Part shown: positions 35,151 to 63,749 of the stretch, piece after piece
Position numbering within the stretch: position 1 is the stretch's first letter
Layout: every line of letters begins with the position of its first letter
Assembly: GCA_043800255.1 (NCBI GenBank)
Contig: JAZDNF010000008.1
Span: forward strand, 1 to 64,000
Direction: 5' to 3'
Length of the DNA: 64,000 bases
DNA from: Candidatus Altiarchaeota archaeon
GTDB taxonomy: Archaea > Altiarchaeota > Altiarchaeia > IMC4 > SCGC-AAA252-I15
The notes under the pieces: generated by a model
What the model saw: only the letters and a program-made list of their open reading frames with translations
What the model was told of the DNA's origin: nothing
Database searches by the model: none
Program-made: the position numbers and the translations under genes

Positions 35151-35307
35151 CGCCGAGGTTGGGATTTGAACCCAAGTGGCCACAAGGACCACGGACTAGC
35201 TGCCACCTTGTCTTGTTTTTTCTTTTTCGTGCACGTTTTTCTTTTTTTCTAAAAAAGAAAAAGGTGCTAGCAGGCCCGCGCGTTAGACCATACTCCGCCA
35301 CCTCGGC
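35151..35307 (-). tRNA. tRNA-Ser(GCT) with 70-nt canonical intron (35198-35267)
   Basis: Acceptor GCCGAGG/CCTCGGC, G73, long variable arm, TTCAAAT loop, BHB CTGC/GCAG with 3-nt bulges. Confidence 0.93.
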
Positions 35308-35442
35308 ATTGTGTTATCGGGTTTTGTTATCCTCTTGGCGAGGTGGTGGGTCTGAGCCCTTGCAGGGCGAAGCTGACCGCCACCTCAGCATTTTATGGCG
35401 ATGTTAACGACCCTCAGGTCGCGACCACCTCGGCATAAAAAA

Positions 35443-35619
35443 TTATTCTAGCTTCTCTGCCTCGTCGATGAGCATTATGGGTATGTCGTCTTCCACCCTG
35501 TATTTGAGTTTGCAGGCGTGGCATGTGAGGTAGTGCTCTTTCTTGTTGTTCACGTACTCGAGGTCGCCTTTGCATTTGGGGCATGCGAGTATGTCCAGTA
35601 GTTTTTTGTCTAATGCCAT
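35443..35619 (-). CDS. trm112: Trm112 family protein
   Basis: Manual translation MALDKKLLDILACPKCKGDL..C..C..Y.VEDDIPIMLIDEA. Confidence 0.9.
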   Translation of the reverse strand: MALDKKLLDILACPKCKGDLEYVNNKKEHYLTCHACKLKYRVEDDIPIMLIDEAEKLE

Positions 35620-35652
35620 TTTTGGTGTAATATTTTAGTTCAAGGGCTTATA

Positions 35653-36621
35653 TTAATCGCTTTTCCACATGCGGGGGTAGACGCCGGTTTCCATGAAAAC
35701 CCTTTTGGATTTGACTATTTCCCCTTTTTTGAGTTCCAGCATCTGTTTCGAGTCGGTAAGGGCTTTTCCGACTGATATGAGCTCCCCTTTGAGGGTGGTT
35801 ATCGCAACATGGTCTCCTGCTTTTATGCCGGATTCCAGCTTCGACACTCCCGGCGCTTTCAGGGTTGCGCCGTGGCATATGGAGTCAACGGCGCCGTCTT
35901 TGACCCAGATTTTTGGCATCCCCTTGAGGGCGTCTTCCACGTGTGTCAGGCGTTCAATAAGTTTGCGGCTGTCTCCCTGCTTGTGGTATTCGAAGGCGTC
36001 TCTCAGATCATGCAGTCTGATGCAGTCGTCCTCGGTTATCCATCCTACCTTAGTCCTCCTGAGTTCGAGCATGTGCGCTCCGACTCCGAGGACTGTGCCG
36101 ATGTCGTGGCAGAGTTTTCTGACGTATGTGCCTGCCTCGCAGTTCACCTTCAGGAGGACTTTTCTCCCGTCTTTTTCGAGGATGACGATTTTGTGGATTG
36201 TCCTGACTCTGAGCTCTCTTTTGACTGCTGACTTCAGGGGCGGGCGCTGGTATATGCCGCCTGTGAATTCTCTTAGCACGCCTTCCAGGTCTTTGTCAGG
36301 CACTTCCTTGTGCAGTTCCAGGATGCCTACGTACTCTTTGTTCAGGTTCAGGAAGGTCAGCACTCTGGTGGCATACTCTAGTCCTATGGGGAGCACTCCA
36401 GTAACGTTCGGGTCCAGTGTTCCTGAGTAGCCTGCCTTTTCGATGCCAAGCATCCTCTTCACCCACACTGTGACCTGGTGGGATGTGGGGCCGCTTGGCT
36501 TGTTGAGGTAGACGAAGCTCTTTTTCAGTCTTTCTTCGACTGTTCTAGAATCTGGCTCGCAGCCGAAATCTGGGTTCGTCTTCTCCTCGTCTTTTACGAG
36601 AATGTCCTTGGCGCCTTCCAT
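35653..36621 (-). CDS. cbf5: H/ACA pseudouridine synthase Cbf5
   Basis: KPSGPTSHQV, GTLDP, EAGTYVRKLCHD, PUA domain. Confidence 0.95.
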   Translation of the reverse strand: MEGAKDILVKDEEKTNPDFGCEPDSRTVEERLKKSFVYLNKPSGPTSHQVTVWVKRMLGIEKAGYSGTLDPNVTGVLPIGLEYATRVLTFLNLNKEYVGILELHKEVPDKDLEGVLREFTGGIYQRPPLKSAVKRELRVRTIHKIVILEKDGRKVLLKVNCEAGTYVRKLCHDIGTVLGVGAHMLELRRTKVGWITEDDCIRLHDLRDAFEYHKQGDSRKLIERLTHVEDALKGMPKIWVKDGAVDSICHGATLKAPGVSKLESGIKAGDHVAITTLKGELISVGKALTDSKQMLELKKGEIVKSKRVFMETGVYPRMWKSD

Positions 36622-36622
36622 T

Positions 36623-36859
36623 TCAGGGGAGGTCGGCTTTCTTCATCGCGTCTAACACTGTTTTACTGTCCGCGCCTTTCTTGATTTTCACTGTCGCGGG
36701 GAGGGGTTCGATGTGTTTGATGTTTACTTTGCCTCTTTTGACGTTCTCCCCTTCCACTATTACGGTGTTCTTGTCTGCGGTGTCTGCTATCACGCAGTAT
36801 TCGCCAGCGTCGTTTCCGCGCAGTTTGACGCAGACTCTTCCAACTTCTATCAAAGCCAT
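36623..36859 (-). CDS. rpl14e: 50S ribosomal protein L14e
   Basis: IEVGRVCVK..G..AG, NIKHIEP. Confidence 0.93.
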   Translation of the reverse strand: MALIEVGRVCVKLRGNDAGEYCVIADTADKNTVIVEGENVKRGKVNIKHIEPLPATVKIKKGADSKTVLDAMKKADLP

Positions 36860-36902
36860 TTTGAGATAAATGATAGGGTGTTCAGCCTTAAAAAGTAAAC
36901 GC

Positions 36903-38315
36903 CTATAGTGTGTCGAGGCAGTCGGGGTCTGCGGGCGGGCACACTGGATTCTGGCCTGGGCAGTTCTGGCATGGCAGGCTATTCCAGTCGACGCAGCAGC
37001 AGGTTTCCCCCTGGAACTCGTAGAAGGCGCTTGCGACGCAGCTTGTCTTGCAATTCTGGGTTATCTGCTGCAGCTTCTGTGAGGCCCAGTCCTTGCACTG
37101 CTGTTGCGTGTTTATCACCGGCGCTCCGAAGACTCCGGTGTTTATCCACTGGTATCCGTTCACGCCCTGGTCATCGCAGTACATCTGGCAGTTAGGATAG
37201 CACAGGCAGTCGCTCTCGCATCCCAGATATATGTCGATGTCCTCGCAGTCGAAATCTGATTCGCACTCCTCTCCTGGCTCCACAACATCGTTGCCGCATT
37301 CGTACTCGTAACAGTAATAGCAGTGGCTGCATGTGTCCCACTGTTTGCAGTATCCGACGTCAGGGTCGTTGCAGTATTTTATGCATTCGGTGTAATTCTT
37401 CAGCACCAGCGCGCCTCCCAATGTTGAGCAGTCTTTGTCCTTGCAGTAGTTGCATGGCGTGCTCTGGTACTGGGAGCATTCTTCACACTCCGCATCGCAG
37501 TTTCCGCCGCAGTTCACATCGTTGTAGAGGCTTCCGCCGCAGGTCACGGAAACTGTCGTGGTAGCCTGTACAGATGTCGTTGGCGTTGATGTGGTAGCTC
37601 CTCCCACGGTTGTCGGCGTCGAGGTCGTTGCTCCGGCAGTTGTTGTTGGTTGTGTCGAAGTTGTTGGGGTCGTGCCCGTCTGGCAGTAGGCTGTGCACTT
37701 GCAGGCTGATTCATCCCAGACGCAGTTCAGCACCGTCTGGCCTCTTGAAGTGCACTGGCTGTTGCAGTGGGCTGTGCAGTCGTCTTTGCCCCAGGCGCAC
37801 TTTTTCGTGCTCGAAACTGGGACTCCCTCATCGTCGGTGCACTGCCCGTTGAGGCATCTTTCAGCGCATGTTTCGACTATCTCGGTCTTTATGCTGCCCA
37901 TGCACTTCGAGTCTGCCGTTCCCGGCTTGCTGCAACGGTATGAGGTTACATCCTGGACTACCTTCTCCTGGTAGCATCTTAGCTGGCCCAGATTCGGGCC
38001 GCCGCAGTCAGCATTTATAGTGCATGTGAACTTTGTGCTCGTGGTAGTCTCAACGCTCGTTGTTGGTTCAGCAGTTGTCGTTGATTCTACAGTGCTGGCG
38101 ACGGTCGTCTCCTCTAAAGTGGTTGTCTTCTCGTCGTTGTCGCATATCGAGTTGTTATCACCGTCCAGGCAGCATTCTTTCCCGACCTGGATGTAGGGCA
38201 CGTTGCAGACAATTTCCGCCTGAGCGGGCGCCTTCTGGCTGGGGGAAGTGCAGCCAGCAGCAAGCATTACAGAGACTAGAAACAGGACTGTGATGATCTT
38301 TTCATTCAGCTTCAT
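36903..38315 (-). CDS. Cys-rich surface lipoprotein with Thr-rich linkers
   Basis: Lipobox LAAGC, CCLD.D.N.ICD, TT tracts, dense Cys. Confidence 0.85.
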   Translation of the reverse strand: MKLNEKIITVLFLVSVMLAAGCTSPSQKAPAQAEIVCNVPYIQVGKECCLDGDNNSICDNDEKTTTLEETTVASTVESTTTAEPTTSVETTTSTKFTCTINADCGGPNLGQLRCYQEKVVQDVTSYRCSKPGTADSKCMGSIKTEIVETCAERCLNGQCTDDEGVPVSSTKKCAWGKDDCTAHCNSQCTSRGQTVLNCVWDESACKCTAYCQTGTTPTTSTQPTTTAGATTSTPTTVGGATTSTPTTSVQATTTVSVTCGGSLYNDVNCGGNCDAECEECSQYQSTPCNYCKDKDCSTLGGALVLKNYTECIKYCNDPDVGYCKQWDTCSHCYYCYEYECGNDVVEPGEECESDFDCEDIDIYLGCESDCLCYPNCQMYCDDQGVNGYQWINTGVFGAPVINTQQQCKDWASQKLQQITQNCKTSCVASAFYEFQGETCCCVDWNSLPCQNCPGQNPVCPPADPDCLDTL

Positions 38316-38362
38316 CCAACTTCCCAGATAATTATCTGATAGAGTCTATAAAAATCCCCAAA

Positions 38363-39067
38363 TCAGTTGTGAACAGTAACCTTGTTCTCGTAAATCTCAT
38401 AAACTGTCTTATCCCCTCTGATTCCCCCCTTGAGAGTGTGATATCTTGTCACGTCGGCTCTGCCGTCGTTTTTCAGCGTGATGTTCGTGACATTGTCTCC
38501 TCGCGGCTCGCCTGCGACCGGCTTCTCGAAATCCTCATACGATACTTTGAATTCCCGCCCGGACAGTTCGTCTTTTGTGAATTTTATCATGTCTGTCGCA
38601 GTGTCCTTCTCGCCGATGCCGTTCCCCTTGACCAGGTAGACAATGGTGTCCTTTGCTTTCGCGAGCTTGAGCCATTCGTCCAGGAAGCCGCCGATGTCTA
38701 CAGTAGTGTGAGTGTGTGCCAAACCTATCAGCTTCTTCTCTTTATTGACAAGGCACACGTACATGCAGCTTGAGGCGAACTCAGACGCCAGGCTTTCGAG
38801 TTCGTTGGTTATGCGCCCGTATCCCTGGATTATGCTGCCTTCTGATGTGGGGCTTCCCTTCGCCTCCTCTAGGAACGCGTCGGTGAGCCTTCCGTCGCCT
38901 GTCCGGTATTTTTCCCTGCGGGCCAGCCTGAACGTCCAAGTCCCGACCGCGTCCTCAGCTAGTTCAGTCCTCGTCTTCCATCGTTCTCCGACCTGGCGGA
39001 TTTGCTCGACCTCGTCATATTCCCTTCTCTCGTGAGGGGGGTGGCCGGCCTCTCTGGTGACGCTCAT
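38363..39067 (-). CDS. Hypothetical protein, possible CheD/CNF1-like deamidase fold
   Basis: FASSCMYVCL..IGLAH resembles the SC..H catalytic spacing. Confidence 0.5.
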   Translation of the reverse strand: MSVTREAGHPPHERREYDEVEQIRQVGERWKTRTELAEDAVGTWTFRLARREKYRTGDGRLTDAFLEEAKGSPTSEGSIIQGYGRITNELESLASEFASSCMYVCLVNKEKKLIGLAHTHTTVDIGGFLDEWLKLAKAKDTIVYLVKGNGIGEKDTATDMIKFTKDELSGREFKVSYEDFEKPVAGEPRGDNVTNITLKNDGRADVTRYHTLKGGIRGDKTVYEIYENKVTVHN

Positions 39068-39102
39068 AGTATATTACAATACGCTGCCGGCAGATTAATA
39101 GC

Positions 39103-39756
39103 TCAGAGGGTTGAGAAATCTTTCCCGTGTTTTTGGAGGAATTTTTTCAGATTTTTTTGGGGGATCTTGTGAGGTTTCCCTATCAGCTTAGCTCCAACGT
39201 AGACTTTCGCCATCTTCTCAACGAGTTCTGCCATCTTCACGGTATGTTCGACGGTGCGACCGCAGACTAGGGCGCCGTGGTTCGCCAGGAGCGTCCCGTT
39301 CCTGTTCCCAAGAGCCTTCACAGCCTTTGCCCCTATTTTTTCGGTGTTGGCTTCTGCGTATTCTGACACGTTGACTTCTCCGCCTAAGAAGATTGCCATC
39401 TCTTCCAGGAGTACGGGTATCTTTTCCCTGGCTGCTGACAGCATCGTGGCGTACGGCGAGTGCGTGTGTATGACACACTTTGCTTTAGGCTTCGCCCTGT
39501 AGACTGCAGCATGCAATCGATACTCTGATGAGGGTTTCCTGCCTTTGCTGACCTGTGTTCCGTCGAATCTTATGCGTACTATGTCTTCTGCAATCAGCTT
39601 TCCATAGTCGTTGAACGTTGGCGTTATGTAGAGTTCCTCCCTGTCAGGGACTCTGACACTCACATTCCCTTCACCGGTCTCAACCAGTCCCCTCTCGTGT
39701 ATCGCCTTAGCAGCCTTGAGAACCTCTCCCCTGAGCTTCTTCTCTTCTGAGTCCAT
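39103..39756 (-). CDS. Class II aldolase/adducin (FucA-like)
   Basis: GNVS, PSSE..H, HTHS, NHG. Confidence 0.9.
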   Translation of the reverse strand: MDSEEKKLRGEVLKAAKAIHERGLVETGEGNVSVRVPDREELYITPTFNDYGKLIAEDIVRIRFDGTQVSKGRKPSSEYRLHAAVYRAKPKAKCVIHTHSPYATMLSAAREKIPVLLEEMAIFLGGEVNVSEYAEANTEKIGAKAVKALGNRNGTLLANHGALVCGRTVEHTVKMAELVEKMAKVYVGAKLIGKPHKIPQKNLKKFLQKHGKDFSTL

Positions 39757-39892
39757 CTCCTCTGGAATATTATTAACCGAATTCTATTAAAGATTATCTA
39801 GGGACAGGAGAGAAGCCAGCTTATACGCTTACAGTGGCTGATTTCCCGGTTAGTTGGTTTTTAATCGGCAGGCCAGAATCTTATAATAGGAC

Positions 39893-40882
39893 ATGGTCGA
39901 GTACGATACTGCGGAGAGGAGCGTCGTCACGGATGTGCCGTCCATACAGTTGGGTTCTACGTTAAAGGACGCTGAGAGTCTCCTTATGAGGGGGGCGAAA
40001 TATTACAGCACGGTAGACTACGTGTACGTTCTCAACAAATCTGGGGTGCTTGTCGGCGTCATGTCCGTGAGGGAGATTCTCGGCGCCGCGGACAAGAGCG
40101 TGAAAGTGGACGATGTTATGGTCAAGAATCCTGTGGTCGCGCACCTTCACACTCACCAGGAGACTCTCGTGTACAGGGCTCTCAAGCATGGCATAAAGTC
40201 GATGCCCATCGTAGACAGGAGCGGAGTGTTCATCGGCGTCGTGCCTTTCAACACCATTCTGCAGATTTTCAACGAGGAGCTTCACGGCGAGATACTCAAG
40301 TTGGGAGGAGTCTACCATAAGGTCGGGAAGGAGTTCGCAACCATAAACTCTAAGACGGCGACGATGATCAGGCACAGGATGCCGTGGCTTGTTGTGGGAG
40401 TCCTTGGCGGTGCTGTCACCGCTACCATCGTCGGCAGCTTTGAGGATGTGTTGAGCAGGCTTATCACCCTCGCAGCGTTTACCCCGGTTCTCGCCTACCT
40501 CAGCGATGCTGTCGGCACACAGTCTGAGACGCTGGCTGTTAGGAGCATAGCATTAGACCCGAAACTTTCTGTCAGAGCCTATTTTGCGAGGGAGCTTTCT
40601 GTCGCGCTTGTGCTGGCGTTAACCTGCGGGATACTTTTGGCCGCGGTGGCTGAAATCGGCTGGGCTGACCCAGTCCTCAGCGTCATAGTCGGCATCTCAA
40701 TGTTCCTGAGCATCATAGCAGCGGTCATGATCTCAACAACGTTGCCTTTCATCCTGAGGAAATTTAACGTAGACCCAGCATACGCTTCAGGCCCCTTCGC
40801 TACCATGATAAGCGACATCGCAACCGTCACCATATACTTCCTCACCGCCACACAACTCCTAACAACCAACGGCCTGCTCTGA
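39893..40882 (+). CDS. mgtE: MgtE magnesium transporter (CBS pair + TM)
   Basis: CBS domains, RMPWL, GTQS, DPA.ASGPF.T.I.D. Confidence 0.9.
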   Translation: MVEYDTAERSVVTDVPSIQLGSTLKDAESLLMRGAKYYSTVDYVYVLNKSGVLVGVMSVREILGAADKSVKVDDVMVKNPVVAHLHTHQETLVYRALKHGIKSMPIVDRSGVFIGVVPFNTILQIFNEELHGEILKLGGVYHKVGKEFATINSKTATMIRHRMPWLVVGVLGGAVTATIVGSFEDVLSRLITLAAFTPVLAYLSDAVGTQSETLAVRSIALDPKLSVRAYFARELSVALVLALTCGILLAAVAEIGWADPVLSVIVGISMFLSIIAAVMISTTLPFILRKFNVDPAYASGPFATMISDIATVTIYFLTATQLLTTNGLL

Positions 40883-41139
40883 AAAGAACTAACACGCAGC
40901 TTCTGAGATGATTTAGATTCCATATAGAATCACCTCAGCTTGGCTATATGAACCTAAAACGAAGAAGTGATTTGTTTTTATTCTCGTTCTAATACATAAC
41001 TGAGGGGCTGATATGGCAACTAAAAACAGGGTATGCGGGATACATACAAGAGTGTAATGGAGCTTGTCAGAGACGCTTTAACAAAACCAACTCCTGAGGA
41101 ATAACATCCTAGATATACACTCCAGCCTCTTGTCCGAAA

Positions 41140-41667
41140 ATGAAGGAGAAAACAAAAAACGTGGTAGTGCATCTTGGGGATGTTGGACCCGATGACTCGG
41201 CTAAAGGTAGAGAGTATACTGAGAGGTTCCCAGACATTATGTTCATTGGAATAGACATTGAGGAGCGTCTTGAAAAATTCGAACTCGACAATTATAGGCA
41301 TCTCACTGCCGATTTTATAGGCGGGCTTAAAACCTTAGAGGACAACTCCATAACATTAATCTCCTCTAATCTGGCTTTAGGCTACTATGATGTGGCAGGT
41401 AATATGATCAAAGCCAAAGAAGCGGCAGACTATACTATGCGAGTAGCTCAATTAGCCCACGATAAACTAAAGAGGGGTGGGAAACTGCTGGTAGTAGTGG
41501 CTGAAGATCAGGCTGATATAATAAAGGAAGCCGTCATTAAAGGATCCTTTCATCCTGAAGATGTCAAAACACGCCCCCTAGAACCAAACGAGTATAAACG
41601 AACACACTGGATAAAGGATTACGTCAAAGATAACATTCCCCTCTGTCAGATAACTGCGACAAAATAA
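41140..41667 (+). CDS. Class I SAM-dependent methyltransferase-like protein
   Basis: GDVGP, FIGID, ADF, LKRGGKL; upstream frames are broken. Confidence 0.55.
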   Translation: MKEKTKNVVVHLGDVGPDDSAKGREYTERFPDIMFIGIDIEERLEKFELDNYRHLTADFIGGLKTLEDNSITLISSNLALGYYDVAGNMIKAKEAADYTMRVAQLAHDKLKRGGKLLVVVAEDQADIIKEAVIKGSFHPEDVKTRPLEPNEYKRTHWIKDYVKDNIPLCQITATK

Positions 41668-41794
41668 AACGTTTTAAAGTTTGGGGCCAGTGACTTATTG
41701 GAGTCTGAAATCTAGCTATTATTGTGAAACAACCGCGTAAGAAGAAGTTAGGTGTAGGATTTTTACCTTCGTTTTTAATACATAAGAGATGGGA

Positions 41795-41811
41795 TGGGCC
41801 TGCGGAGATTT
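41795..41811 (-). repeat. 17-bp duplicate of the tRNA-Ile 3' end
   Basis: TGGGCCTGCGGAGATTT identical to 41966-41982. Confidence 0.9.
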
Positions 41812-41965
41812 CTTAACCGCGGGGGCTCCCGCCCCCTCAGTTTCAAGTTCTTCCTGAACCCCCGAAACGAATTGCGAGGTCTCTCGACCTCGCGAATGCA
41901 TTATCACGCTCAAGGGGACTGAGCGAAGCGAAGTCGCCGCCGCATGTAAACTGGGCGTGACAGTT

Positions 41966-42128
41966 TGGGCCTGCGGAGATTTGAACTCCGGACCTCTCGA
42001 TTTCAGAAGCGACGCGTAATTCGCGTCCTGCACCTCCCGTCTTTTTTCTTTGGGGGTGAAGCACCTTTCTTTTCTAAAGAAAGGGGCTCTATCAGTCGAG
42101 TGCTCTAACCAGTCTGAGCCACAGGCCC
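41966..42128 (-). tRNA. tRNA-Ile(GAT) with 88-nt canonical intron (42002-42089)
   Basis: GGGCCTG/CAGGCCC, A73, CTCGA-CTGATA|A-TCGAG, BHB with one U-U mismatch. Confidence 0.92.
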
Positions 42129-42199
42129 TTGTAAGCAAAAGGTGAGTTAATCTTAGTGATTTAATACTAAAATAAGTTTTTCCTAAAAGAAAAAGGCTT

Positions 42200-42292
42200 G
42201 TCGAGTGCTCAGCGCGAGAAGCTCTGCTTCTCGGCTCGCCAAAATCGCAGTGGCGATTTTGCGCGTAACCAGTCTGAGCCACAGGCCCTTGT
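42200..42292 (-). pseudogene. Duplicate tRNA-Ile 5' half interrupted by a 55-nt twin-hairpin insertion
   Basis: GTCGAGTGCTC (42200-42210) and TAACCAGTCTGAGCCACAGGCCCTTGT (42266-42292) match the tRNA; no anticodon. Confidence 0.8.
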
Positions 42293-42310
42293 TTATTCTT
42301 TAGTTATTAT

Positions 42311-42395
42311 GGGCCATTAAGCGACCGAAAGGGAGCGCATATGGCTCAACCGAGACATCCGTCTCGGTGAGCACGAAGACGAATGTCTTCGTTGC
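42311..42395 (+). repeat. TAAGCGA..GAGCGCAT module copy 2 plus CGAGAC/CGAAGAC twin hairpin
   Basis: Matches 35090-35125, 63199-63231 and 63625-63672. Confidence 0.8.
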
Positions 42396-42482
42396 TCCTT
42401 TGGCCAGCCTTTAAAAAGGCTGTGAGCCACAGGCCCGTGAAAATTTGAGGTTATTTTTAGTGTTTTTAAGATAAAAAATAGT

Positions 42483-42821: not shown

Positions 42822-42823
42822 GG

Positions 42824-44278: not shown

Positions 44279-44321
44279 CTTCTGGAGTATAAGATTATGT
44301 TTAATTAAAATTTAAGTGAGG

Positions 44322-54728: not shown

Positions 54729-54771
54729 GATTATGCGTTTTTATTCTGATGTAAGTAATGAATAGATTTTT

Positions 54772-56010: not shown

Positions 56011-56064
56011 CTGCTTTTTTAGTTGGAGGTTCAATCATCTCTTATTAGTTTTTATCTTGAGGGG

Positions 56065-56505: not shown

Positions 56506-56595
56506 GGAACACACAAATCTAGGATATACTCTAGACTGTCCGCAATATAGATTAAAAAAAAAGGATAATGGGCTTTTTTGCAGCCCCGCTCATCT

Positions 56596-56790
56596 TCAGA
56601 TGACTTTCACGTTTCCGGCTTTTGGCCCGCGGTCTCCTTCTACTATGTCAAATGAAACGCGGTCGTTTTCGTTGAGCGTTTTGCCGCTTTTGAGGGCGCT
56701 CTCGTGGACGAAGTAGTCTTTACCGTCGTCGCCGTTTATGAAGCCGAACCTTTTCATCCTGTTAAAGAATTTGACTGTTCCTTCAACCAT
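56596..56790 (-). CDS. Cold-shock protein
   Basis: GTVKFFN..FGFI, YFVH, GPKA. Confidence 0.95.
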   Translation of the reverse strand: MVEGTVKFFNRMKRFGFINGDDGKDYFVHESALKSGKTLNENDRVSFDIVEGDRGPKAGNVKVI

Positions 56791-56956
56791 TGTAGTATCA
56801 CCTCCATGTAATGCTTATTTTCCGCCCGAATTGGACGTTAAATCCTAGTTGGATTCTGTTAGAAACAGAAAGAACATGCGGGAACATAAGTCAACAATAG
56901 GTAAGTGTTTTTCTACCTATTAGGGTTTTATGCTTAAAAATCAAACTATCCTGTCC

Positions 56957-57481
56957 TTACAGGTCGTCCAGGGCATCTCCCAGCAATCCCCGCACCCGTT
57001 TCTTCTCATTCAGGAAGTATTGCCTCACAAGGGCCAGGTGGTATATGGGCTTGGCCATTATCTGAGCGGGGGTGGAATCAGCCAGCAGTTTCATCACCGC
57101 CTCCTGGTCCCACGAGTCCATACCCCTCTCAACTCTTATAGTCTCCGCCTTGCTGTCCAGTCTTCCGCCTTCGGATTCCCACAGCTGCTTTAACGCTGAG
57201 AAAACTTTGGAGTTGAGGTCGTCTTCCAGCTTTTTCATAGAGAGGCCGAAAATCACAGCATCGATTTCTTGTTTGCCTAGCATGTCCCCTAACTGCGGCC
57301 CGAAGGTTGCTGCACCCTCAATCAGCGAGTCTTCTGATAGCTGGGTTCGTGGTTTCCGGCCTAAAGATTTTGGCATAAGCTCTCTCAGCTTCTGGATAGG
57401 GGAGCCCTGCTTTTCCCTGTCGTCTTCTTTTTTCTTAGGCTGCCGGCGCCTGTCCTTTGGGAATTCTATCAGCTCTCCCAT
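56957..57481 (-). CDS. Hypothetical protein
   Basis: 174-aa ORF, charged N-terminus. Confidence 0.6.
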   Translation of the reverse strand: MGELIEFPKDRRRQPKKKEDDREKQGSPIQKLRELMPKSLGRKPRTQLSEDSLIEGAATFGPQLGDMLGKQEIDAVIFGLSMKKLEDDLNSKVFSALKQLWESEGGRLDSKAETIRVERGMDSWDQEAVMKLLADSTPAQIMAKPIYHLALVRQYFLNEKKRVRGLLGDALDDL

Positions 57482-57516
57482 GGTTTATTACAATGAACGC
57501 CGGGATAATATATACT

Positions 57517-58665
57517 ATGGACCGGGTTGTCTTGCGCAGGGCATCTGATGGACTCGCGCAAGAGGTCAGGCAGAACCTGGAAGCCATTGAGAGGCTGACT
57601 CCCAAGGAGGCTGGCAAATTGAAGCCTGCTGTCACGGAGGAGCTGAAAGTTGACTTGCACCATCACTTCGTGCCTTCTACGAATCCTGCCAAGCGGGCTA
57701 AACAGGTTAGGGCGTTCTGGAAGGCTGTGCAGGCGAGCGATTTGGATGCTGTCGCCGTAACAACGCACAGTGACATCGAAAGAGGCGACGTCAATCCTGA
57801 GTCCATCTATCGTGAGCTTAGGGAGGCAATGCCTGAGAAGCTCAGGAAAGGCAAGTTCAAGCTTTTGGCTGGGCTTGAAGTCCAGTGCAGACCGAATAAA
57901 ACGGAGATAGGTCTGATATCCCCTGAGCCGGACCTCCTCTATAAGGATCCCTTCTGGTATTCGATGCCCTCTGCAGATGATGTTGGGAGGAAAATAAGAG
58001 ATGACAGCAGGCTGCTTGGTTATTTGCCGCATCCTTTCTCCGGTTCTGGGGGAGCTGCTCATGGATCACACATGGGCGCGGACGAGGCTAGGAGGCTGGT
58101 GGGAGAATACGGCCTCGGCGTTGAATTCACTGGCATGTACAGGGACGGTAAGCTGCTGACGCAGCAGCCTATTTTGAGGCAGCTTTTAGGCCTTTTTGAG
58201 ATGCTGCCTCAGAAGAATAAGGTTCTGACGAAGATTGCGGCCGTGTCCGAGGGCTTCAGGCGGGCGGATGAGGAGGTGCATAGGAGCGGGCTGGCGGGTG
58301 AAGCCAGGTTCGTAACAGTCGGAGGCGACTATCATGATGCGAAAGACCTCGGCAAATCTTACATACTCGTTCCTGTGAAGAAAAAGTCCGATAAGCCGCT
58401 CAGCCAACAGTATGACATTCTGGAGAGCGGGGGCGGCATGATCCTGTTGGAGGCGAGCAAAAGCGCAGTCTCGGATGCTGCTGGCAGGCCTGCCTCAGAG
58501 GAGGAGATCATCGAAAGCATCAAAACGACAAAAGACACTGCGGAACCCCACCTGCAGGGAGAGCAGGGGAAAGACTTCAAGCTGCTCCTGAACCTGACAG
58601 CCGAATTCGCAAGAGAGACGAAAGCCAACCTCAGAGAAAAACGCCTAGTGAAAAAACAAGAATAG
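57517..58665 (+). CDS. PHP-domain metal-dependent phosphoesterase-like protein
   Basis: DLHHH, AVTTHSD, GLEV, PHPF, GGDYH. Confidence 0.75.
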   Translation: MDRVVLRRASDGLAQEVRQNLEAIERLTPKEAGKLKPAVTEELKVDLHHHFVPSTNPAKRAKQVRAFWKAVQASDLDAVAVTTHSDIERGDVNPESIYRELREAMPEKLRKGKFKLLAGLEVQCRPNKTEIGLISPEPDLLYKDPFWYSMPSADDVGRKIRDDSRLLGYLPHPFSGSGGAAHGSHMGADEARRLVGEYGLGVEFTGMYRDGKLLTQQPILRQLLGLFEMLPQKNKVLTKIAAVSEGFRRADEEVHRSGLAGEARFVTVGGDYHDAKDLGKSYILVPVKKKSDKPLSQQYDILESGGGMILLEASKSAVSDAAGRPASEEEIIESIKTTKDTAEPHLQGEQGKDFKLLLNLTAEFARETKANLREKRLVKKQE

Positions 58666-58846
58666 ACTCTGTCAAATCCGAATCTTGCCGAAGGTGGGAA
58701 CCTAAACATTGGTACAAGAGGAGTTAAAAACGTTAGACTGTGAGGTAACAAAAAAGACGGCATAAAATAGATTTCAGACTGATTCTACTGAAGATATTAT
58801 AGAACAATGATATAAAAAGCGTTATGTTCTTATACATAAACTGAGG

Positions 58847-59221
58847 ATGAAAGCGTTGCATAGTTTTGTTCATCAGAGTAGGGAGGGTAAGATAACTTCT
58901 TTGTCAATGTATTTGGCTGATTCTGGGCAGGCGTTGAACATGTCAGTTAGTGAGAAGATCAACGACACATCGGAGATAATCCGGGTGAAATTCAACTTGA
59001 ACGAGATCGCAGCAATGTCTAAACTAAACACTTGGTCTACCTACCACTCCTTTGAGAAGGAGGGTAAGACGTCAGAGACTCGGATAAACTGGAACACCCC
59101 CTTCTTCAGCGTTGAGAAGGAGGGTAAAAAGATCGCGATAAAATTCACCGACGCTGAAATTTATGGGTTTCAGATGACGCTGGAGACCGCATTCCAAGAG
59201 CTGATCAGAAGAGGAAAATAG
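58847..59221 (+). CDS. Hypothetical protein
   Basis: 124-aa ORF with internal EKEGK repeat. Confidence 0.6.
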   Translation: MKALHSFVHQSREGKITSLSMYLADSGQALNMSVSEKINDTSEIIRVKFNLNEIAAMSKLNTWSTYHSFEKEGKTSETRINWNTPFFSVEKEGKKIAIKFTDAEIYGFQMTLETAFQELIRRGK

Positions 59222-59228
59222 ATTATTT

Positions 59229-60758
59229 CTAGTTGTTTTTAGATTCGCTGATACCTTCAAAATCGATATACCCTCGCGTGGGATCCACATTGATCAATCT
59301 AACACGAACTTTCTGTCCGACAGCCATTCTTTCCCCTCCATGCATGACCCTGCCTTCTACTGGTGGTGAGATAATCCGTACATAAGTTCCCTTTTCAGAA
59401 GCCCCGGTGACAATCCCATCAAATGAGTCCCCTAATCTATCACCCAATAATACCGCTGCCGCTGCCTTTCGCATGAAACGTTCAACCTTCTGAGCAGCTT
59501 TGTCGCGATCAGTACACCACAATGAAAGTTCAATTAACTCTTTTTGAGTATACGGACTTGATTCTTTTGCCAGAACTGATTTAAAAAGCCGTTGAAGAAT
59601 AACATCCACATAACGTCGGTTAGGGGCTGTAGCATGAGTGTAGTCCATAACGGCAAGGCCAAAATGGCCATATGAAGGCTTACCCGGCTCAAGCATGACA
59701 TATTCGCCTGCCCCCAACAACTTTACGATCGTTAAAGACAGATCAGGGAAATGTTCGGAATCAACCTCTTTTTGCCTAATGAGAAATTGTGAAAGCGCCT
59801 TTGAGTCAGGTTCAGAAGGCAAAGTCTCACCGTGGGCGACAGCGACATCCATTATACCCCTCCAGTTTCGAGGAGTGCGGACGACCCTCTGGATTACCGG
59901 AATTCCTGCTTTTTCTAAAAAATTCATCATCGTCACATTGACGGCTATCATAAGGTTCTCAATCAAGTATCGTGCTCGATTTTTCCTTTGGATTACTAAA
60001 CCTTTTACCCTCTCGTTCTCCACAACCGGTTTAGGTTCGATTGTGTCCAATTCAAGAGCCCCTTTGTCCATACGAAATTTTCTTAAACGTTGCGAGGCCT
60101 CATCCTGCAGGGCAAGTTGTTCTTCTAGCCCGGGAATTTCCCGTACGAGATGGGGAGCAGGGCCCTTCCCCTCAAGCCAGTCACCGATTTCTTCATAAAT
60201 AAGCTTTGCTTTATTGCGCACAATCGCACGGTATATGTCTCCTGAGCGGATGCTCCCGTCTAAAAGGACTGCAAACTCGATGACAACTGCCAAGCGGTCT
60301 TGGCCAGCTCGCAGAGAGGAGAGATCAGTAGACAACCTATTTGGAAGCATTGGGAAAATCTCTATCCCAGTATAAACCGATGTGCCATTTTGAACGGCAT
60401 GCTGGTCAGTTTGGGAGTTTTTTGGGGCAAACAAATCAACATCAGCAATAGCAACCTTAACCAGTATCTCTTGGTTGGAACCATGCTCACAGTATTCTAG
60501 TTGATCAAGGTCCAGAGAATCCTCATTATCGATTGAAGACCATAATAATGAACGAAGGTCTCTGGCATCATTTTGACCGCCTTTCAAAAGCTGTTTTACA
60601 TTGATAGCGTTGACTTCATTTATCACAAGCTTTGGGAATTGGGATTGGAAACCATATTTATTCATCGCCTTTCTGGCTATGGCCTTAAGGTCTAGGTTAC
60701 GGTAATTAGCGATATTTCCTATCCTCTCTCCCCCACTTTTTCGCTTAGGACGTTCCAT
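59229..60758 (-). CDS. RNB-family (RNase II/R-like) exoribonuclease
   Basis: SIDN..S.DLDQ, VAIADV, HFGLA..YTH.TAPNRRYVD, S1 domain. Confidence 0.9.
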   Translation of the reverse strand: MERPKRKSGGERIGNIANYRNLDLKAIARKAMNKYGFQSQFPKLVINEVNAINVKQLLKGGQNDARDLRSLLWSSIDNEDSLDLDQLEYCEHGSNQEILVKVAIADVDLFAPKNSQTDQHAVQNGTSVYTGIEIFPMLPNRLSTDLSSLRAGQDRLAVVIEFAVLLDGSIRSGDIYRAIVRNKAKLIYEEIGDWLEGKGPAPHLVREIPGLEEQLALQDEASQRLRKFRMDKGALELDTIEPKPVVENERVKGLVIQRKNRARYLIENLMIAVNVTMMNFLEKAGIPVIQRVVRTPRNWRGIMDVAVAHGETLPSEPDSKALSQFLIRQKEVDSEHFPDLSLTIVKLLGAGEYVMLEPGKPSYGHFGLAVMDYTHATAPNRRYVDVILQRLFKSVLAKESSPYTQKELIELSLWCTDRDKAAQKVERFMRKAAAAVLLGDRLGDSFDGIVTGASEKGTYVRIISPPVEGRVMHGGERMAVGQKVRVRLINVDPTRGYIDFEGISESKNN

Positions 60759-62887
60759 CTCTCTTTTTCTTCTTCGTTAAACGAGCTTTTTACCTGCTTT
60801 AATGCCTGCTGGAAGTGTTTCATGGTGACTTTCCTTGAAGTCGGCTTGTCTTTGCTTTGGCCTATTGACTCGCGTATGGCGTTCATCCCAGCTTCCCTAC
60901 ATACTGCGGAGATGTCTGCTCCGTTATAGTTTTCAGTCGCGTTCACCATTTCATCTAGTTTTATGTCTGAGTCAAGATTCATCTTTTTCATGTGCACTTT
61001 AAAAATCTTTTCGCGGCTTATCTTGTCTGGGAAGGGGACGTAGATAATCTTGTCCAATCTTCCGGGGCGCATCAACGCTTCATCCAAAAGATCCGGCCTG
61101 TTTGTAGAGCCTATTATCATGACGTCCTTAAGCTCTGATACTCCATCTATTTCGGTTAATATTTGAGCGACGACTTTTTCGTTCACGTCGCTTCCGAAGC
61201 TTTCACCTCTTTTCGGGATTAGGGCGTCCAGTTCATCGAAGAATATGATTGCTGGAGCAACTTGTCTTGCCCTGCTGAATACCTTCCGTACTCCTCGCTC
61301 AGACTCTCCCACGTACTTGTTCAATAGTTCCGGGCCTTTTATTGATATGAAGTTTACTCCGGATTCTTTTGCAATGGCTTTAGCGAGCATGGTTTTTCCG
61401 CAACCTGGCGGCCCGTATATCAGCACACCTTTAGGCGGCGCTACTCCAGTCTCCTTGAACATGCTGCTGTATTTGATAGGCCATTCAATGCTTTCCTTGA
61501 GTTGTCCTTTGACTTTTTCAAGTCCGCCTATATCGTCCCAGGTTACGTTGGGTATTTCAACTGAGACTTCACGCATGGCTGATGGTTCCACCCTGCTCAT
61601 GCCCTCATGGAAGTCTTCTCCAGTAATCTTTATTTTGTTTAGTATGTCCGTTGAAAGCTTCATATCTTTCGCCTTCTTTATATCCGGCATCAGTTTCCTC
61701 AACGCTTTCATGGCTGCTTCCTTGCAGAGTGCTTCAAGGTCCGCTCCAGTGTAGCCGTAAGTTATGTCTGCAAGGTGGTCAAGATTCACGTCTTTAGCTA
61801 GAGGCATGCCTCTTGTATGAATCTGCAAAACTTCCTTCCTACCGTTCCGGTCTGGAACCCCAATCTCAATCTCTCTGTCGAACCTACCCGGCCTTCTAAG
61901 GGCAGGGTCTATTGAGTCCGGCCTGTTGGTTGCTGCAATCACTACAACTTCTCCTCTCGACTGGAGACCGTCCATAAGCGTTAAGAGCTGGCTTACGATT
62001 CTTTTTTCAACTTCGCCATGGACTTCCTCACGGCTGGGTGCTATAGCGTCAATCTCGTCAATGAATATTATCGCGGGAGTGTGTTCTTGCGCATTCTTGA
62101 ATACTTCCCGCAAGTTTTCCTCACTTTGACCGTAGTATTTGCTCATAATTTCCGGGCCGTTCAGTGATATAAATTGAGCGTCGGTTTCGCTTGCAACCGC
62201 TTTTGCAAGAAGGGTTTTTCCGGTTCCGGGAGGCCCGTATAACATGACTCCTTTCGGCGGTTTTATTCCTAGCTTTTGGAAGACTTCAGGATGTTTTATC
62301 GGAGTTTCAATCATTTCTCTTATCGCGTCTATCTCATCTTTGAGCCCGCCGATGTCCTCATACCTTATTCCAGGAGACAGTTCAGTAGTCTTCACCGGAT
62401 TTTTGGATATCCTGATTTCAGTGTCGGGGGTTACAATGACTATCCCTTTTGGCTTGATGCGGGTAACCATCAACGGGAGTTGAACTCCCATGACATCTAC
62501 AACGACAACATGTCCTTGCATGAAGGGCATATTCATTAACTTCTCCTGCAGGTATATTGGAAGATCATCTCCAAACTCTATGGGCTGAAAGGGACTGAAT
62601 TGTATCTCACTCGCCTTACTGTAGTCGACTTTTTCTACTTTGACCTCTTCGTCAATGCTTGCGCCAGCATTGTGCCTTATTATCCCATCAAGCCGTATAC
62701 TACCCCGCCCCTCATCTTCCATCTGCCCGGGCCAGGCTCTTGCAGAAGCTTTCTTTTTACCTTCTATGACAAGTATATCCCCCGGTGAAAGCTTCATCTT
62801 TCTGAATACTACAGGGTCTATCCTTGCAATACCCCCACCCACTTCGTTTACCCTAGCCTCCTTGACTTTTAAAATCGCGTCTTTCAT
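60719..62887 (-). CDS. cdc48: CDC48/VAT AAA+ ATPase
   Basis: Two AAA modules GPPGTGKT and [14 protein letters not shown]. Confidence 0.95.
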
Positions 62888-63198
62888 TCTACCCTCTCTC
62901 TGGATCTCCATCCACAATGTCTTTCACATAGACGGTCATACCATCAATAAAGGAAATGCAAACTACTTGGGAAGGATATTAGAATACAACAATAAATCCA
63001 CTGTTTTGGCTTAGTCAAGGAAGATAGAACGCAACGCGGCTTAGAGTAGGTAAAAGTAGTGAACATCACAACACAATAAGCAAAGTGAGTGGGCTAAGTG
63101 CTCTGACACATCAACTGGAGGATAAGGTTCGAAGTTACAGTGTTAGAGTTCAAGTCCCTAAGGGCTCTGAAAAAACACGAATCAAAAGGATGCTCAGT

Positions 63199-63231
63199 GC
63201 GGCTAAGCGAGCGTTAGCGAGCGCATGCCGC
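63199..63231 (+). repeat. TAAGCGA..GAGCGCAT hairpin module, copy 3
   Basis: gcggc-TAAGCGA-gcGTTAgc-GAGCGCAT-gccgc. Confidence 0.8.
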
Positions 63232-63259
63232 TCCCTGGCGTAAACGGACAGTGTCGGTT

Positions 63260-63444
63260 TGCCGAAGGCGGGACTCGAACCCGCGACCTCCAGATAACTC
63301 AGCGTTATCGTGAAATCTTCCCTAGCCTTTGGCTACGGTGCCCGGCCCCAAAATTTTTTCTTTGGGGGTGAAGCACCTTTCTTTTCATAAAAGAAAGGGG
63401 CTCGCTTATGAGTCTGGCACTCTGCGCTACTGAGCTACTTCGGC
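63260..63444 (-). tRNA. Elongator tRNA-Met(CAT) with 111-nt canonical intron (63296-63406)
   Basis: GCCGAAG/CTTCGGC, A73, CCAGA-CTCATA|A-TCTGG, BHB CTCA/TGAG. Confidence 0.88.
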
Positions 63445-63528
63445 GTAACTGGAAATCCAGTTAGCAGATTGTACTGTCTTCGGCTCCGGCCTCGACAGTA
63501 CTGAATAATATTATCTTGACGTATTATA

Positions 63529-63749
63529 TTTCTTTTCCATCAACGCTTTTCTTTCCTAAAGAAAAGGGTTGCTGGATTCAATATTATGGGCGTTAGAGTA
63601 TATTAATTTTCTTTTTCGCCAACGCAAACGAGACTTTGTCTCGTTGCGCACGAAGACGCTAGTCTTCGTTGCGTTTTTCTTTTCCCTAAGGAGCGAAGCT
63701 CCTTGGGCGCAGGGAACGAAGTTCCCTCGCGTCTAAAAGAAAAAGGTTG
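63529..63749 (+). repeat. Two triplex-type modules, the second with two nested twin-hairpin insertions
   Basis: Pyrimidine tract + pyrimidine/purine hairpin at 63529-63571 and 63607-63749. Confidence 0.8.

What the first reader, a model, noticed from the sequence alone, without database searches (positions are those of the whole stretch)
35216..63749. Intrastrand triple-helix motif with co-varying third strand in all three introns and the tRNA-Met flank
Seen: a pyrimidine tract precedes a Y/R hairpin and matches the purine arm in parallel, with run lengths changing together. Examples: T6CT5C versus A6GA5G (35216-28/35251-63), T3CT4CC versus A3GA4GG (63529-38/63558-67), T4CT5C versus A4GA5G (63607-17/63735-45), and T3-4CT3 versus A3-4GA3 in the Ile and Met introns. 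A purine mismatch is kept at the stem base. Established: bacterial intrastrand-triplex (PIT-type) repeats exist. Inference: the triplex is under selection. Its residence in archaeal tRNA introns looks new to me.
Basis: partly seen in the sequence, partly recalled or inferred. Interest (0 to 1): 0.8.

Follow-up and report, generated by a model that had tools for sequence, protein, structure and literature searches.

The report
Archaeal three-tract triplex hairpin element
A short hairpin followed by a back-to-front copy of one of its arms, able to fold into a three-stranded helix, sits inside tRNA introns and directly after RNA genes in many archaeal groups, and I found no description of it in print.

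Summary
All four quoted examples are at the stated coordinates. They belong to one family of 45-60-nt elements (up to about 145 nt with inserted hairpins). Read on the strand of the neighbouring gene, an element is: N1-N2-A-C, an unpaired C, a pyrimidine arm, a 2-5-nt loop, a purine arm, an unpaired C, G-U-N2'-N1', A-C, then a purine tract that starts with G and repeats the purine arm backwards.

- In 206 distinct copies the third tract mirrors the whole arm in 174.
- The clamp pairs N1/N1' and N2/N2' co-vary: 145 and 144 of 147 are Watson-Crick.
- A degenerate pattern returned 115 genome stretches, all with archaeal titles (ANME-1, Altiarchaeota, DPANN, Thermoplasmatales and others), and none from viral contigs.

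Copies follow the gene's strand. They lie at the 5' end of tRNA introns, 0-5 nt after tRNA, 5S rRNA and C/D sRNA 3' ends, and just after stop codons.

Selection on a three-strand fold is the best reading. Whether RNA or DNA folds, and what the fold does, is not shown. My best guess is a structured marker of the 3' boundary of RNA units. No physical or expression data were available.

The parts
35150..35308 (-). tRNA-Ser(GCU) gene with a canonical intron of about 70 nt (roughly 35198-35267)
   Evidence: Rfam RF00005, 38.9 bits; aragorn -i gives Ser(gct) i(42,70); sequence read in tRNA sense.
35216..35267 (-). Element copy 1 (type A), at the 5' end of the Ser intron. In + coordinates: third tract 35216-35228, linker 35229-35235, pyrimidine arm 35236-35247, loop 35248-35250, purine arm 35251-35262, mismatch G35235.G35263, clamp 35231-35234 with 35264-35267.
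   Evidence: In the RNAfold minimum-free-energy structure the hairpin plus the 4-bp clamp with a 1x1 mismatch gives -14.7 kcal/mol on the sense strand and -17.0 on the + strand.
41966..42128 (-). tRNA gene that I read as Ile(GAU), with an intron of about 88 nt
   Evidence: aragorn -i call, labelled Ser(gga); anticodon loop read by eye; not reported by Rfam at E<=1.
42042..42089 (-). Element copy 2 (type B), in the Ile intron. Third tract 42042-42051, G5 42052-42056, linker 42057-42063, hairpin 42064-42084 (arms 9, loop 3), clamp to 42089.
   Evidence: RNAfold (-15.6 kcal/mol); 94-96% identical copies at C5:9339, C5:18328 and C2:12604.
63260..63444 (-). tRNA-Met(CAU) gene with a 111-nt canonical intron (about 63296-63406)
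   Evidence: Rfam, 52.6 bits; aragorn i(39,111); orthologous intron in 7 other genera of the family, 76-82% identity.
63354..63403 (-). Element copy 3 (type B), in the Met intron. Third tract 63354-63363, G5 63364-63368, hairpin 63376-63398 (arms 10, loop 3).
   Evidence: RNAfold also predicts a competing hairpin that pairs part of the third tract. Arm and third tract change together among orthologues.
63529..63571 (-). Element copy 4 (type A), free-standing and upstream of tRNA-Met on the same strand. Third tract 63529-63538, linker 63539-63545, arm 63546-63554, loop 63555-63557, purine arm 63558-63566, mismatch G63545.G63567, clamp 63541-63544 with 63568-63571.
63607..63749 (-). Element copy 5 (type C, composite). 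Third tract 63607-63617; two inserted hairpins in the linker (about 63623-63671); pyrimidine arm 63674-63683; two inserted hairpins in the loop (about 63687-63734); purine arm 63735-63744; clamp to 63749.
   Evidence: The same two linker hairpins occur in 5 copies in the genome. RNAfold gives -63 to -65 kcal/mol, z-scores -6.7 and -7.5.

Best explanation
The window holds five copies of a widespread archaeal cis-element that I could not find described.

Anatomy, read on the strand of the adjacent gene:
- a 4-bp clamp (N1 N2 A C paired with G U N2' N1');
- a conserved C.C mismatch;
- a pyrimidine/purine hairpin of 6-14 bp;
- an invariant two-base linker (A-C);
- a purine tract that starts with G at the mismatch layer and repeats the purine arm backwards over its whole length.

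Shown:
- The anatomy above.
- The three-way co-variation of the two arms and the third tract.
- The orientation, which follows the gene.
- The position in transcribed but discarded RNA immediately 3' of a functional RNA segment: a tRNA 5' exon, the 3' end of a tRNA, 5S rRNA or C/D sRNA, or a stop codon.

Inferred:
- One single strand folds so that the third tract lies in the major groove of the hairpin, forming an intramolecular triple helix.
- On the gene strand this would be the purine type (A.A-U and G.G-C, antiparallel). On the complementary strand it would be the pyrimidine type (T.A-T and C+.G-C, parallel).
- Because orientation follows transcription and many copies lie in introns, I take the transcript, or the strand displaced during transcription, to be what folds.

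Most likely role: a compact, autonomously folding 'full stop' that defines or insulates the 3' boundary of an RNA unit, through 3'-end formation, processing or protection. In tRNA introns its clamp abuts the 5' splice site.

It has multiplied within genomes by duplication.

My odds:
- real family with a selected three-strand relationship: about 0.9;
- acts on or with the sense transcript: about 0.55;
- the 3'-boundary role: about 0.4.
For: Structure:
- The third tract mirrors the full arm in 174 of 206 distinct copies, for arm lengths from 6 to 14.
- 56 departures in 1983 layers, 47 of them within 3 layers of the loop.
- The base-layer triple agrees in 94 of 95 copies.
- Mirror 90 of 138, direct repeat 14 of 138, shuffled partners 28.7 on average with a maximum of 43.
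- Clamp co-variation uses all four pair types: N1 pairs in 145 of 147 copies, N2 in 144 of 147.
- The mismatch layer is C.C in 84 of 92 copies and Watson-Crick in 1 of 92.
- The linker is AC in 195 and AT in 11 of 206.
- Extra hairpins are tolerated exactly in the loop and in the linker while the three tracts still match (window 63607-63749).

Orientation and place:
- Own genome: of 25 three-tract hits lying in or near a tRNA, 20 are on the tRNA's strand. Of the 5 on the other strand, 3 are cross-matches between neighbouring copies.
- By my reading, 18 of the 33 printed tRNA calls carry the element at the 5' end of the intron and 6 carry it right after the 3' end.
- Metagenome set: 23 copies on the tRNA's strand and 1 opposite; 25 of 108 follow an open frame of at least 80 aa.
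- A stop codon of a frame of at least 100 aa lies within 12 nt on the sense side in 25 of 145 copies, and on the other side in 9 of 145.
- The element starts 2-3 nt after 5S rRNA in four ANME-1 loci and 2-3 nt after C/D box sRNAs at C13.
- A third-tract-less mini version follows 5S and SRP RNA in this genome.

Age and spread:
- The Met intron with its element is orthologous in 8 genera, and arm and third tract change together.
- All 115 genome stretches have archaeal titles.
Against: - No RNA or structure-probing data exist here. No RNA run was listed.
- An A-rich purine-type triplex is the weaker chemistry. The passages I read of a 2026 review name the class but give no natural contiguous RNA example.
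- The A/T-rich tracts with isolated C/G suit the pyrimidine type better, and that type would form on the non-transcribed-sense (template) strand.
- Mismatch spectra give no strand signal: U.G 5 against C.A 1 in one set, and U.G 5 against C.A 9 in another.
- G.U pairs are almost absent from the clamp, which is unusual for an RNA helix.
- Near-symmetric tracts allow an 8-9-bp Watson-Crick alternative.
- Type B copies carry a C5 run that fits no triplex code, and part of their third tract is predicted to pair elsewhere.
- The distance from the clamp to the upstream RNA end varies from -2 to +5 nt, so no single cleavage point is implied.
- A boundary role does not by itself explain why the element should sit in introns.
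Confidence: 0.45

Rival explanations
1. A DNA-level element. The duplex extrudes, or a single DNA strand folds, into an intrastrand triplex or H-DNA, as proposed for bacterial PIT/TMECO repeats. Its effect is on DNA: recombination or duplication hot spot, supercoil sink, or replication pause. It would not act on RNA.
For: - The purine arm and third tract form a classical homopurine mirror repeat with a 7-8-bp spacer.
- A/T-rich tracts with isolated C suit the well-established T.A-T/C+.G-C DNA triplex on the template strand.
- G.U pairs are nearly absent.
- By my reading of the output, 5 of the 27 own-genome copies examined are flanked by 14-28-nt direct repeats that duplicate part of an RNA gene.
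- TMECO has the same Y-loop-R-loop-R order, forms a triplex in vitro and is linked to genome instability.
Against: - Orientation is tied to the gene's strand, with tRNAs of both strands on one contig. TMECO shows no strand bias.
- The element sits precisely against RNA 3' ends and 5' splice sites.
- Hairpins are inserted at the loop and the linker, as in evolving RNA folds.
- An orthologous intron copy is kept across 8 genera.
Confidence: 0.25
2. A transcription terminator. The T-run of the pyrimidine arm stops the gene's own transcription. The two T-runs on the other strand stop incoming antisense transcription. The hairpin and mirror are by-products.
For: - The element begins 0-5 nt after tRNA, 5S, sRNA and protein-coding genes.
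- T4-T6 runs are present.
- Simpler hairpins of the same kind (CCTTTT...AAAAGG) follow 5S, SRP RNA and many tRNAs in this genome.
- That archaeal polymerases terminate at oligo-T is my recollection, not a result of any call.
Against: - By my reading, the same element with T5-T6 runs lies inside the introns of 18 of the 33 printed tRNA calls, where efficient termination would abolish the tRNA.
- Termination needs neither exact arm complementarity, nor the clamp co-variation, nor the backward third tract.
- Downstream genes are no more often convergent (45) than co-directional (52).
Confidence: 0.15
3. A selfish miniature insertion element, DNA- or RNA-mediated, with no host function. It survives only where it is spliced out, trimmed off or harmless. 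The triplex serves its own propagation.
For: - Each genome has its own sequence flavour. Two-G arms such as A2GA3GA4-5 dominate here, while A4GA4 dominates in the ANME-1 loci.
- Insertions flanked by direct repeats, and gene-fragment-plus-element units.
- Patchy occurrence across distant phyla and within the phylum (20 of 61 genomes).
- In one genus the orthologous Met intron carries type A instead of type B.
- Precedent: families of near-identical tRNA introns in Thermoproteales, read as intron transposition (passage in PMC4090602).
Against: - No terminal inverted repeats and no associated transposase were seen.
- 0 matches in viral contigs.
- Strict sense orientation and boundary placement are not what random insertion followed by purifying selection would easily give.
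- The fold is conserved in an orthologous intron across 8 genera.
Confidence: 0.15
4. There is no triple helix. The third tract is an alternative Watson-Crick partner of the pyrimidine arm (a two-state switch) or a protein-binding site.
For: - Single-G tracts are nearly symmetric, so 8-9 bp can form in a shifted register.
- RNAfold prefers that pairing in the composite copy.
- In some introns the linker has a second complementary partner downstream, which would place the third tract in a hairpin loop (my reading: Gly-UCC, Thr-UGU).
Against: - A Watson-Crick partner should be a direct repeat of the purine arm. That is perfect in 14 of 138 copies, against 90 of 138 for the mirror.
- The base-layer agreement (94 of 95) and the full-length mirror for asymmetric two-G arms are not needed for a shifted duplex.
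- A sequence-specific protein would not read a site and its backward copy as the same site.
Confidence: 0.05

Closest known systems
Bacterial intrastrand triplex repeats (PIT elements; TMECO of E. coli; Holder et al. 2015, PMC4666352; I read sections 10, 16 and 18 and the abstract)
   Same: - Order of the three tracts on one strand: pyrimidine stem, loop, purine stem, loop, purine stem.
- Many copies per genome.
- Non-coding location.
- The complementary strand could form the pyrimidine-type fold.
   Different: - TMECO is G/C-rich and 37 nt long, with loops of 3-6 and 3 nt and no clamp helix.
- It shows no strand bias and no fixed distance to genes.
- The archaeal element is A/T-rich and has a co-varying 4-bp clamp, a fixed mismatch and a 7-nt second connector.
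- It follows the gene's strand and abuts RNA 3' ends and 5' splice sites.
H-DNA-forming homopurine mirror repeats
   Same: The purine arm and third tract are a homopurine mirror repeat separated by a short spacer.
   Different: A third, inverted copy (the pyrimidine arm) on the same strand makes a complete single-strand fold possible. The clamp and linker are conserved.
RNA triple-helix stability elements (ENE with A-rich tract; MALAT1 3' end next to a tRNA-like RNA). The reference appears in the review PMC13541005, of which I saw only passages; the details are recalled.
   Same: - A/U-rich triple helix with an isolated G-C layer.
- Association with RNA 3' ends and with tRNA-type processing.
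   Different: ENE-type helices have two U strands and one A strand on the transcript. Here the transcript of the neighbouring gene has one U strand and two A strands. The two-U arrangement is on the opposite strand.
Paralogous tRNA intron families / 'intron transposition' in Thermoproteales (Fujishima 2010, seen only as described in the review PMC4090602, passage)
   Same: [quoted passage not shown] The mechanism of spread is unknown.
   Different: - The review does not contain the words 'triple' or 'purine'.
- The present family also lies outside introns and in other phyla.
tRNA gene disruption by a mobile element leaving a 5' tRNA fragment upstream (Sugahara et al. 2012, PMC3293823; abstract read)
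   Same: A 5' fragment of a tRNA gene lies upstream of the complete gene, as at C8:132918 and C13:14797 here and in loci L068 and L111.
   Different: There the intervening DNA is 1.8 kb and encodes a recombinase. Here it is 75-175 nt and consists of the element plus a short A/T-rich spacer.

Membership tests
Intrastrand triplex motif as defined by the ITxF finder (Holder 2015) | Three stems of 6-15 nt on one strand obeying AAT/GGC/TAT (or the complementary) triplet rules, with at most one mismatch | tested here: met
   Arms are 6-14 nt. 174 of 206 copies match over the full arm and 97% of layers match. Definition taken.
Intrastrand triplex motif as defined by the ITxF finder (Holder 2015) | Both loops 1-6 nt long | tested here: not met
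   Loop 1 is 2-5 nt. The second connector is 7 nt (C-G-U-N-N-A-C) in type A and 50-60 nt in type C.
TMECO / E. coli PIT family | G/C-rich consensus CCCTCNCCC..GGGNGAGGG..GGGNGAGGG, and no orientation bias | tested here: not met
   The tracts are about 79% A (1563 of 1983 layers). Orientation follows the gene. Consensus and bias taken.
ENE/MALAT1-type RNA triple helix | Two U-rich strands clamping one A-rich strand on the transcribed strand | tested here: not met
   On the tRNA strand the order is one pyrimidine arm and two purine tracts. The two-pyrimidine arrangement is on the opposite strand.
Physically formed triple helix (any type) | A third-strand melting transition, or protection of purine N7 | not testable with these tools
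   Only sequence co-variation is available.
Archaeal tRNA intron spliced at a bulge-helix-bulge motif | Intron at 37/38 with two 3-nt bulges around a 4-bp helix | tested here: inconclusive
   By eye, a 3-4-bp central helix and 3-nt bulges can be drawn for Leu-UAA, Gly-UCC, Cys-GCA and Met-CAU, with the element's clamp next to the 5' bulge (sequences). No program was run. One splicing-endonuclease gene is present (PF01974, 179-aa frame).
Archaeal oligo-T terminator | A T-run directly after the gene at which transcripts end | tested here: inconclusive
   T4-T6 runs sit 3-10 nt after gene ends, but the same runs lie in introns. No 3'-end data; no RNA run was listed.
Miniature transposable element | Terminal inverted repeats and a target-site duplication of fixed length | tested here: not met
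   No terminal inverted repeats apart from the hairpin itself. By my reading of the output, direct repeats flank only 5 of 27 copies, and they vary from 14 to 28 nt.
Any Rfam 15 family | A match to a curated covariance model | tested here: not met
   Window 34000-64000 at E<=1 gave only two tRNA hits and one chance lncRNA hit. Fourteen further loci at gathering score gave only tRNA, 5S and group II intron hits.

The most novel reading that the evidence does not exclude
The gene-sense transcript really folds into a contiguous purine-type RNA triple helix (A.A-U with isolated G.G-C layers, capped by a C.C/G layer and a 4-bp clamp). This would be a natural example of a fold known mainly from polymers. 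Many archaeal lineages would use this fold as a common punctuation mark that sets or protects the 3' boundary of RNA units: tRNA 5' exons, tRNAs, 5S rRNA, C/D sRNAs and mRNAs. On this reading the long tRNA introns of these organisms are built around the same 3'-end signal that closes free-standing RNA genes.
Probability: 0.25. Interest if true: 0.9.

Novelty: new variant of a known kind. Interest (0 to 1): 0.8.

Why it matters
- **Wide conservation.** If the fold forms in RNA, it adds a new class of natural RNA triple helix. It would also be a new archaeal RNA-processing or 3'-end signal shared by Altiarchaeota-type genomes, ANME-1, DPANN groups and others. If it forms in DNA, it is the first gene-oriented intrastrand triplex element tied to RNA genes.
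- **Open question made testable.** Where the long and multiple tRNA introns of uncultivated archaea come from is unresolved. Here the same module sits in introns, in trailers and beside duplicated gene fragments.
- **Practical use in annotation.**
  - Default ARAGORN found no tRNA in this window.
  - The Rfam-based genome scan found 12 tRNAs, against 36 intron-aware ARAGORN calls, some of them false.
  - The element flags 3' ends of RNA genes and helped to spot C/D box sRNAs.

Tried and rejected
- **ARAGORN with default settings** found nothing. The intron-aware mode was needed. Its calls with 'introns' of 733 and 1102 nt look like protein-coding sequence with no element parts, so I dropped them. 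Those of 165 and 216 nt (printed) I also judged false, by eye.
- **Which strand folds?** I looked for an excess of U.G over C.A mismatches. The result was 5 against 1 in one set and 5 against 9 in another. This is inconclusive. One linker hairpin copy shows a G.U on the sense strand (C5:16264), which is too little to count.
- **Self-cleaving ribozyme cutting at its own 5' end.** I considered this because the upstream sequence is free. I set it aside because the clamp starts anywhere from 2 nt inside the upstream RNA to 5 nt after it and few unpaired bases are conserved.
- **Blocker of convergent transcription.** Downstream frames are 45 convergent against 52 co-directional, so there is no enrichment.
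- **Split tRNA halves with an internal promoter.** The stretch after the third tract is only 17-60 nt and I saw no TATA-like box in it.
- **Fold-back DNA synthesis as the origin of the clamp.** Rejected, because copying would not leave the conserved C.C mismatch.
- **Viruses.** 0 matches in viral contigs.
- **Expression.** No RNA holder was listed for a 9.9-kb stretch carrying eight copies.
- **Brute-force in-silico splicing** to name the 'Ile' tRNA gave mixed ARAGORN labels and settled nothing.
- **Bacteria.** Absence from bacteria is therefore not shown.
- **Supplements** of the papers were not opened. Supplementary tables of Holder 2015 (archaeal genomes in ITxF) could bear on whether A/T-rich archaeal motifs were listed there.

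Full report
**What is in the window.**
- Rfam and intron-aware ARAGORN show three minus-strand tRNA genes with long canonical introns: Ser-GCU at 35150-35308, a gene I read as Ile-GAU at 41966-42128, and Met-CAU at 63260-63444.
- Default ARAGORN saw none of them.
- Each intron holds a perfect pyrimidine/purine hairpin with arms of 9-12 bp.
- Two further copies lie upstream of tRNA-Met, on the same strand as the gene (63529-63571 and 63607-63749).

**Anatomy.**
Read on the tRNA strand, a copy runs N1-N2-A-C / C / pyrimidine arm / loop / purine arm / C / G-U-N2'-N1' / A-C / purine third tract.
- The 4-bp clamp co-varies. Among 147 distinct copies N1 pairs in 145, using all four pair types, and N2 pairs in 144.
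- The layer between clamp and hairpin is a C.C mismatch in 84 of 92 copies collected without constraining its 5' base. It is Watson-Crick in 1 of 92.
- The linker is AC in 195 of 206 copies, and the third tract always begins with G (the G was part of my anchor).
- RNAfold gives the hairpin plus clamp as the optimum on either strand, at -11 to -17 kcal/mol.

Three subtypes occur.
- Type A is as described above.
- Type B (Ile and Met introns) has a different linker and a C5 run before the third tract.
- Type C has two conserved hairpins inserted in the linker. The window copy also has two more in the loop.

**The third tract.**
- In 206 distinct copies (own genome, genome loci and metagenome loci), the tract after its first G equals the paired purine arm read backwards over the entire arm in 174. 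This holds for arm lengths 6 to 14.
- Only 56 of 1983 layers depart, and 47 of those lie within three layers of the loop.
- At the base layer the three strands read C/G/G (66 copies) or T/A/A (28 copies), with one exception among 95. The retrieval pattern left the three positions independently degenerate.
- A direct-repeat reading, which is what a Watson-Crick partner would need, is perfect in 14 of 138 copies. The mirror is perfect in 90 of 138. Shuffling partners gives 28.7 on average.
- Among orthologous Met introns of eight genera, arm and tract change together (A4GA3 with A3GA4; A4GA4 with A4GA4+). One genus carries type A instead of type B.

A backward copy cannot arise by replication. 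It also cannot be read by a protein as the same site. Selection on a three-strand fold is therefore the explanation I accept.

The limits of this argument:
- Single-G tracts are nearly symmetric and allow a shifted 8-9-bp duplex, which RNAfold picks in the composite copy.
- Type B's C-run fits no triplex code.

**Chance.**
- The genome has 31 pure Y/R hairpins with arms of at least 9 bp, against 0-1 in shuffles (the script counts each hairpin on both strands).
- A class-only pattern hit 18 of 41 relatives and 20 of 61 genomes of the phylum. The backward control hit none.

**Range.**
- Every title is archaeal: Methanophagales/ANME-1, Syntrophoarchaeum, Methanosarcinales, Methanomicrobiales, Thermoplasmatales, Altiarchaeota, and the DPANN groups Aenigmatarchaeota, Micrarchaeota, Nanoarchaeota, Woesearchaeota, Iainarchaeum, Parvarchaeota and Undinarchaeota.
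- Viral contigs gave none.
- The window's genome lacks mcrA.
- Loci shared between unnamed relatives and titled records place its order among genomes titled Candidatus Altiarchaeota.

**Context.**
- In this genome the element follows the tRNA's strand in 20 of the 25 three-tract hits in or near a tRNA. Of the 5 on the other strand, three are cross-matches, one follows an ORF on the other strand, and one lies in an insertion flanked by direct repeats.
- By my reading it opens the intron, starting at intron nucleotide 1-3, in 18 of the 33 printed tRNA calls. It begins at or just after the discriminator base in six.
- In DPANN loci it lies in D-loop and T-loop introns.
- It starts 2-3 nt after 5S rRNA in four ANME-1 loci and 2-3 nt after the terminal stem of C/D box sRNAs.
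- It sits within 12 nt of the stop codon of a frame of at least 100 aa in 25 of 145 copies, against 9 of 145 on the opposite side.
- In the metagenome set, 23 copies share the tRNA's strand and 1 does not.
- A simpler hairpin of the same design, without mismatch or third tract, follows 5S RNA, SRP RNA and several tRNAs here.

So the element always sits immediately 3' of a functional RNA segment, in sequence that is transcribed and then discarded.

**Signs of duplication.**
- By my reading of the output, 5 of the 27 copies examined are flanked by 14-28-nt direct repeats that duplicate the start or end of an RNA gene.
- This gives 'gene fragment + element + spacer + complete gene' units. The same arrangement is seen in loci L068 and L111.
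- It recalls the 5' tRNA fragment left by a mobile element in Caldiarchaeum (abstract) and the paralogous intron families of Thermoproteales (passage).

**RNA or DNA?**
For the transcript:
- orientation tied to transcription;
- residence in introns;
- helix insertions at the loop and the linker;
- the clamp adapting to constrained upstream bases (discriminator, stop codon).

For DNA, or for the opposite strand:
- A/T-rich tracts with isolated C/G are the favourable chemistry of the pyrimidine-type triplex, which is on the template strand;
- G.U pairs are nearly absent;
- mismatch spectra are uninformative.

No RNA run was listed.

**Known relatives.**
- The nearest described thing is the bacterial TMECO/PIT repeat. 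It has the same Y-R-R order, but it is G/C-rich, has no clamp, shows no strand bias and has no fixed relation to genes.
- Rfam 15 has no matching family.
- Seven literature searches and passages of two reviews gave no report of a triplex motif in archaeal tRNA introns or gene trailers.

**Verdict.**
This is a real, widespread and apparently undescribed archaeal element whose three tracts are kept in triplex register. The function is unproven. I favour a structured 3'-boundary signal acting on or with the transcript, at odds of about 0.4.

Noticed in passing
window 35120-35149 (-); also G000 C16 just 3' of 5S rRNA (63889-64004), C15 just 3' of SRP RNA (21916-22190), C8 after tRNA-Arg(GCG): A nearly identical short motif (clamp caa/ttg, CC/GG, T3-4/A3-4 hairpin without mismatch, then ATCAAATG) directly follows 5S rRNA, SRP RNA and several tRNAs. 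It looks like the plain form of the three-tract element and may be this organism's standard 3'-flank signal for stable RNA genes.
   Followed up: partly
window about 35085-35125 and 63190-63235 (-); also after tRNA-Ala, Arg, Pro and Trp in G000: A second conserved hairpin of about 40 nt (of the form ..gccacatgcgctc....cgcttagtggc..) lies 20-40 nt downstream of many tRNA genes. It is not in Rfam at the thresholds used.
   Followed up: no
window 35310-35400 (-); also C11:118230-118317 and C3:21410-21480: Upstream of three tRNA genes with long variable arms (two read as Ser; ARAGORN calls the third, on C3, Thr), a long hairpin has one arm that copies the first 13 nt or so of the tRNA and another that is complementary to it. 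It may be a leader that can pair with the 5' end of the tRNA.
   Followed up: no
G000 C8:132918-133113, C13:14637-14810, C13:42518-42661, C13:11520-11649, C16:37779-37911; loci L068, L111: Direct repeats of 14-28 nt duplicate the 5' or 3' end of a tRNA or sRNA gene on either side of 'element + short spacer'. The result is a truncated gene copy next to the intact gene.
   Followed up: partly
window 63445-63505; also G000 C13:42535-42598 and the 5' flank of tRNA-Ser(CGA) on C4: Another repeated module (..ctggaaatccag..gcagattgt.. followed by a hairpin) occurs beside tRNA genes, in either orientation relative to them.
   Followed up: no
G000 C13:11430-11870: A cluster of C/D-box-like sRNAs with C, D', C' and D boxes and terminal stems, each followed by the element. 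One truncated copy carries only the first half of the sRNA.
   Followed up: partly
window 42164-42195: A degenerate tract pair (T5CC ... A5GG in parallel register, without the Watson-Crick pyrimidine arm) upstream of the Ile tRNA. It is possibly a decayed copy.
   Followed up: no
whole genome G000: tRNA annotation is badly affected by these introns. Default ARAGORN found 0 tRNAs in the window. The Rfam-based genome scan found 12. Intron-aware ARAGORN made 36 calls with several mislabelled anticodons, such as 'Stop(tta)' and 'Ser(gga)'.
   Followed up: partly
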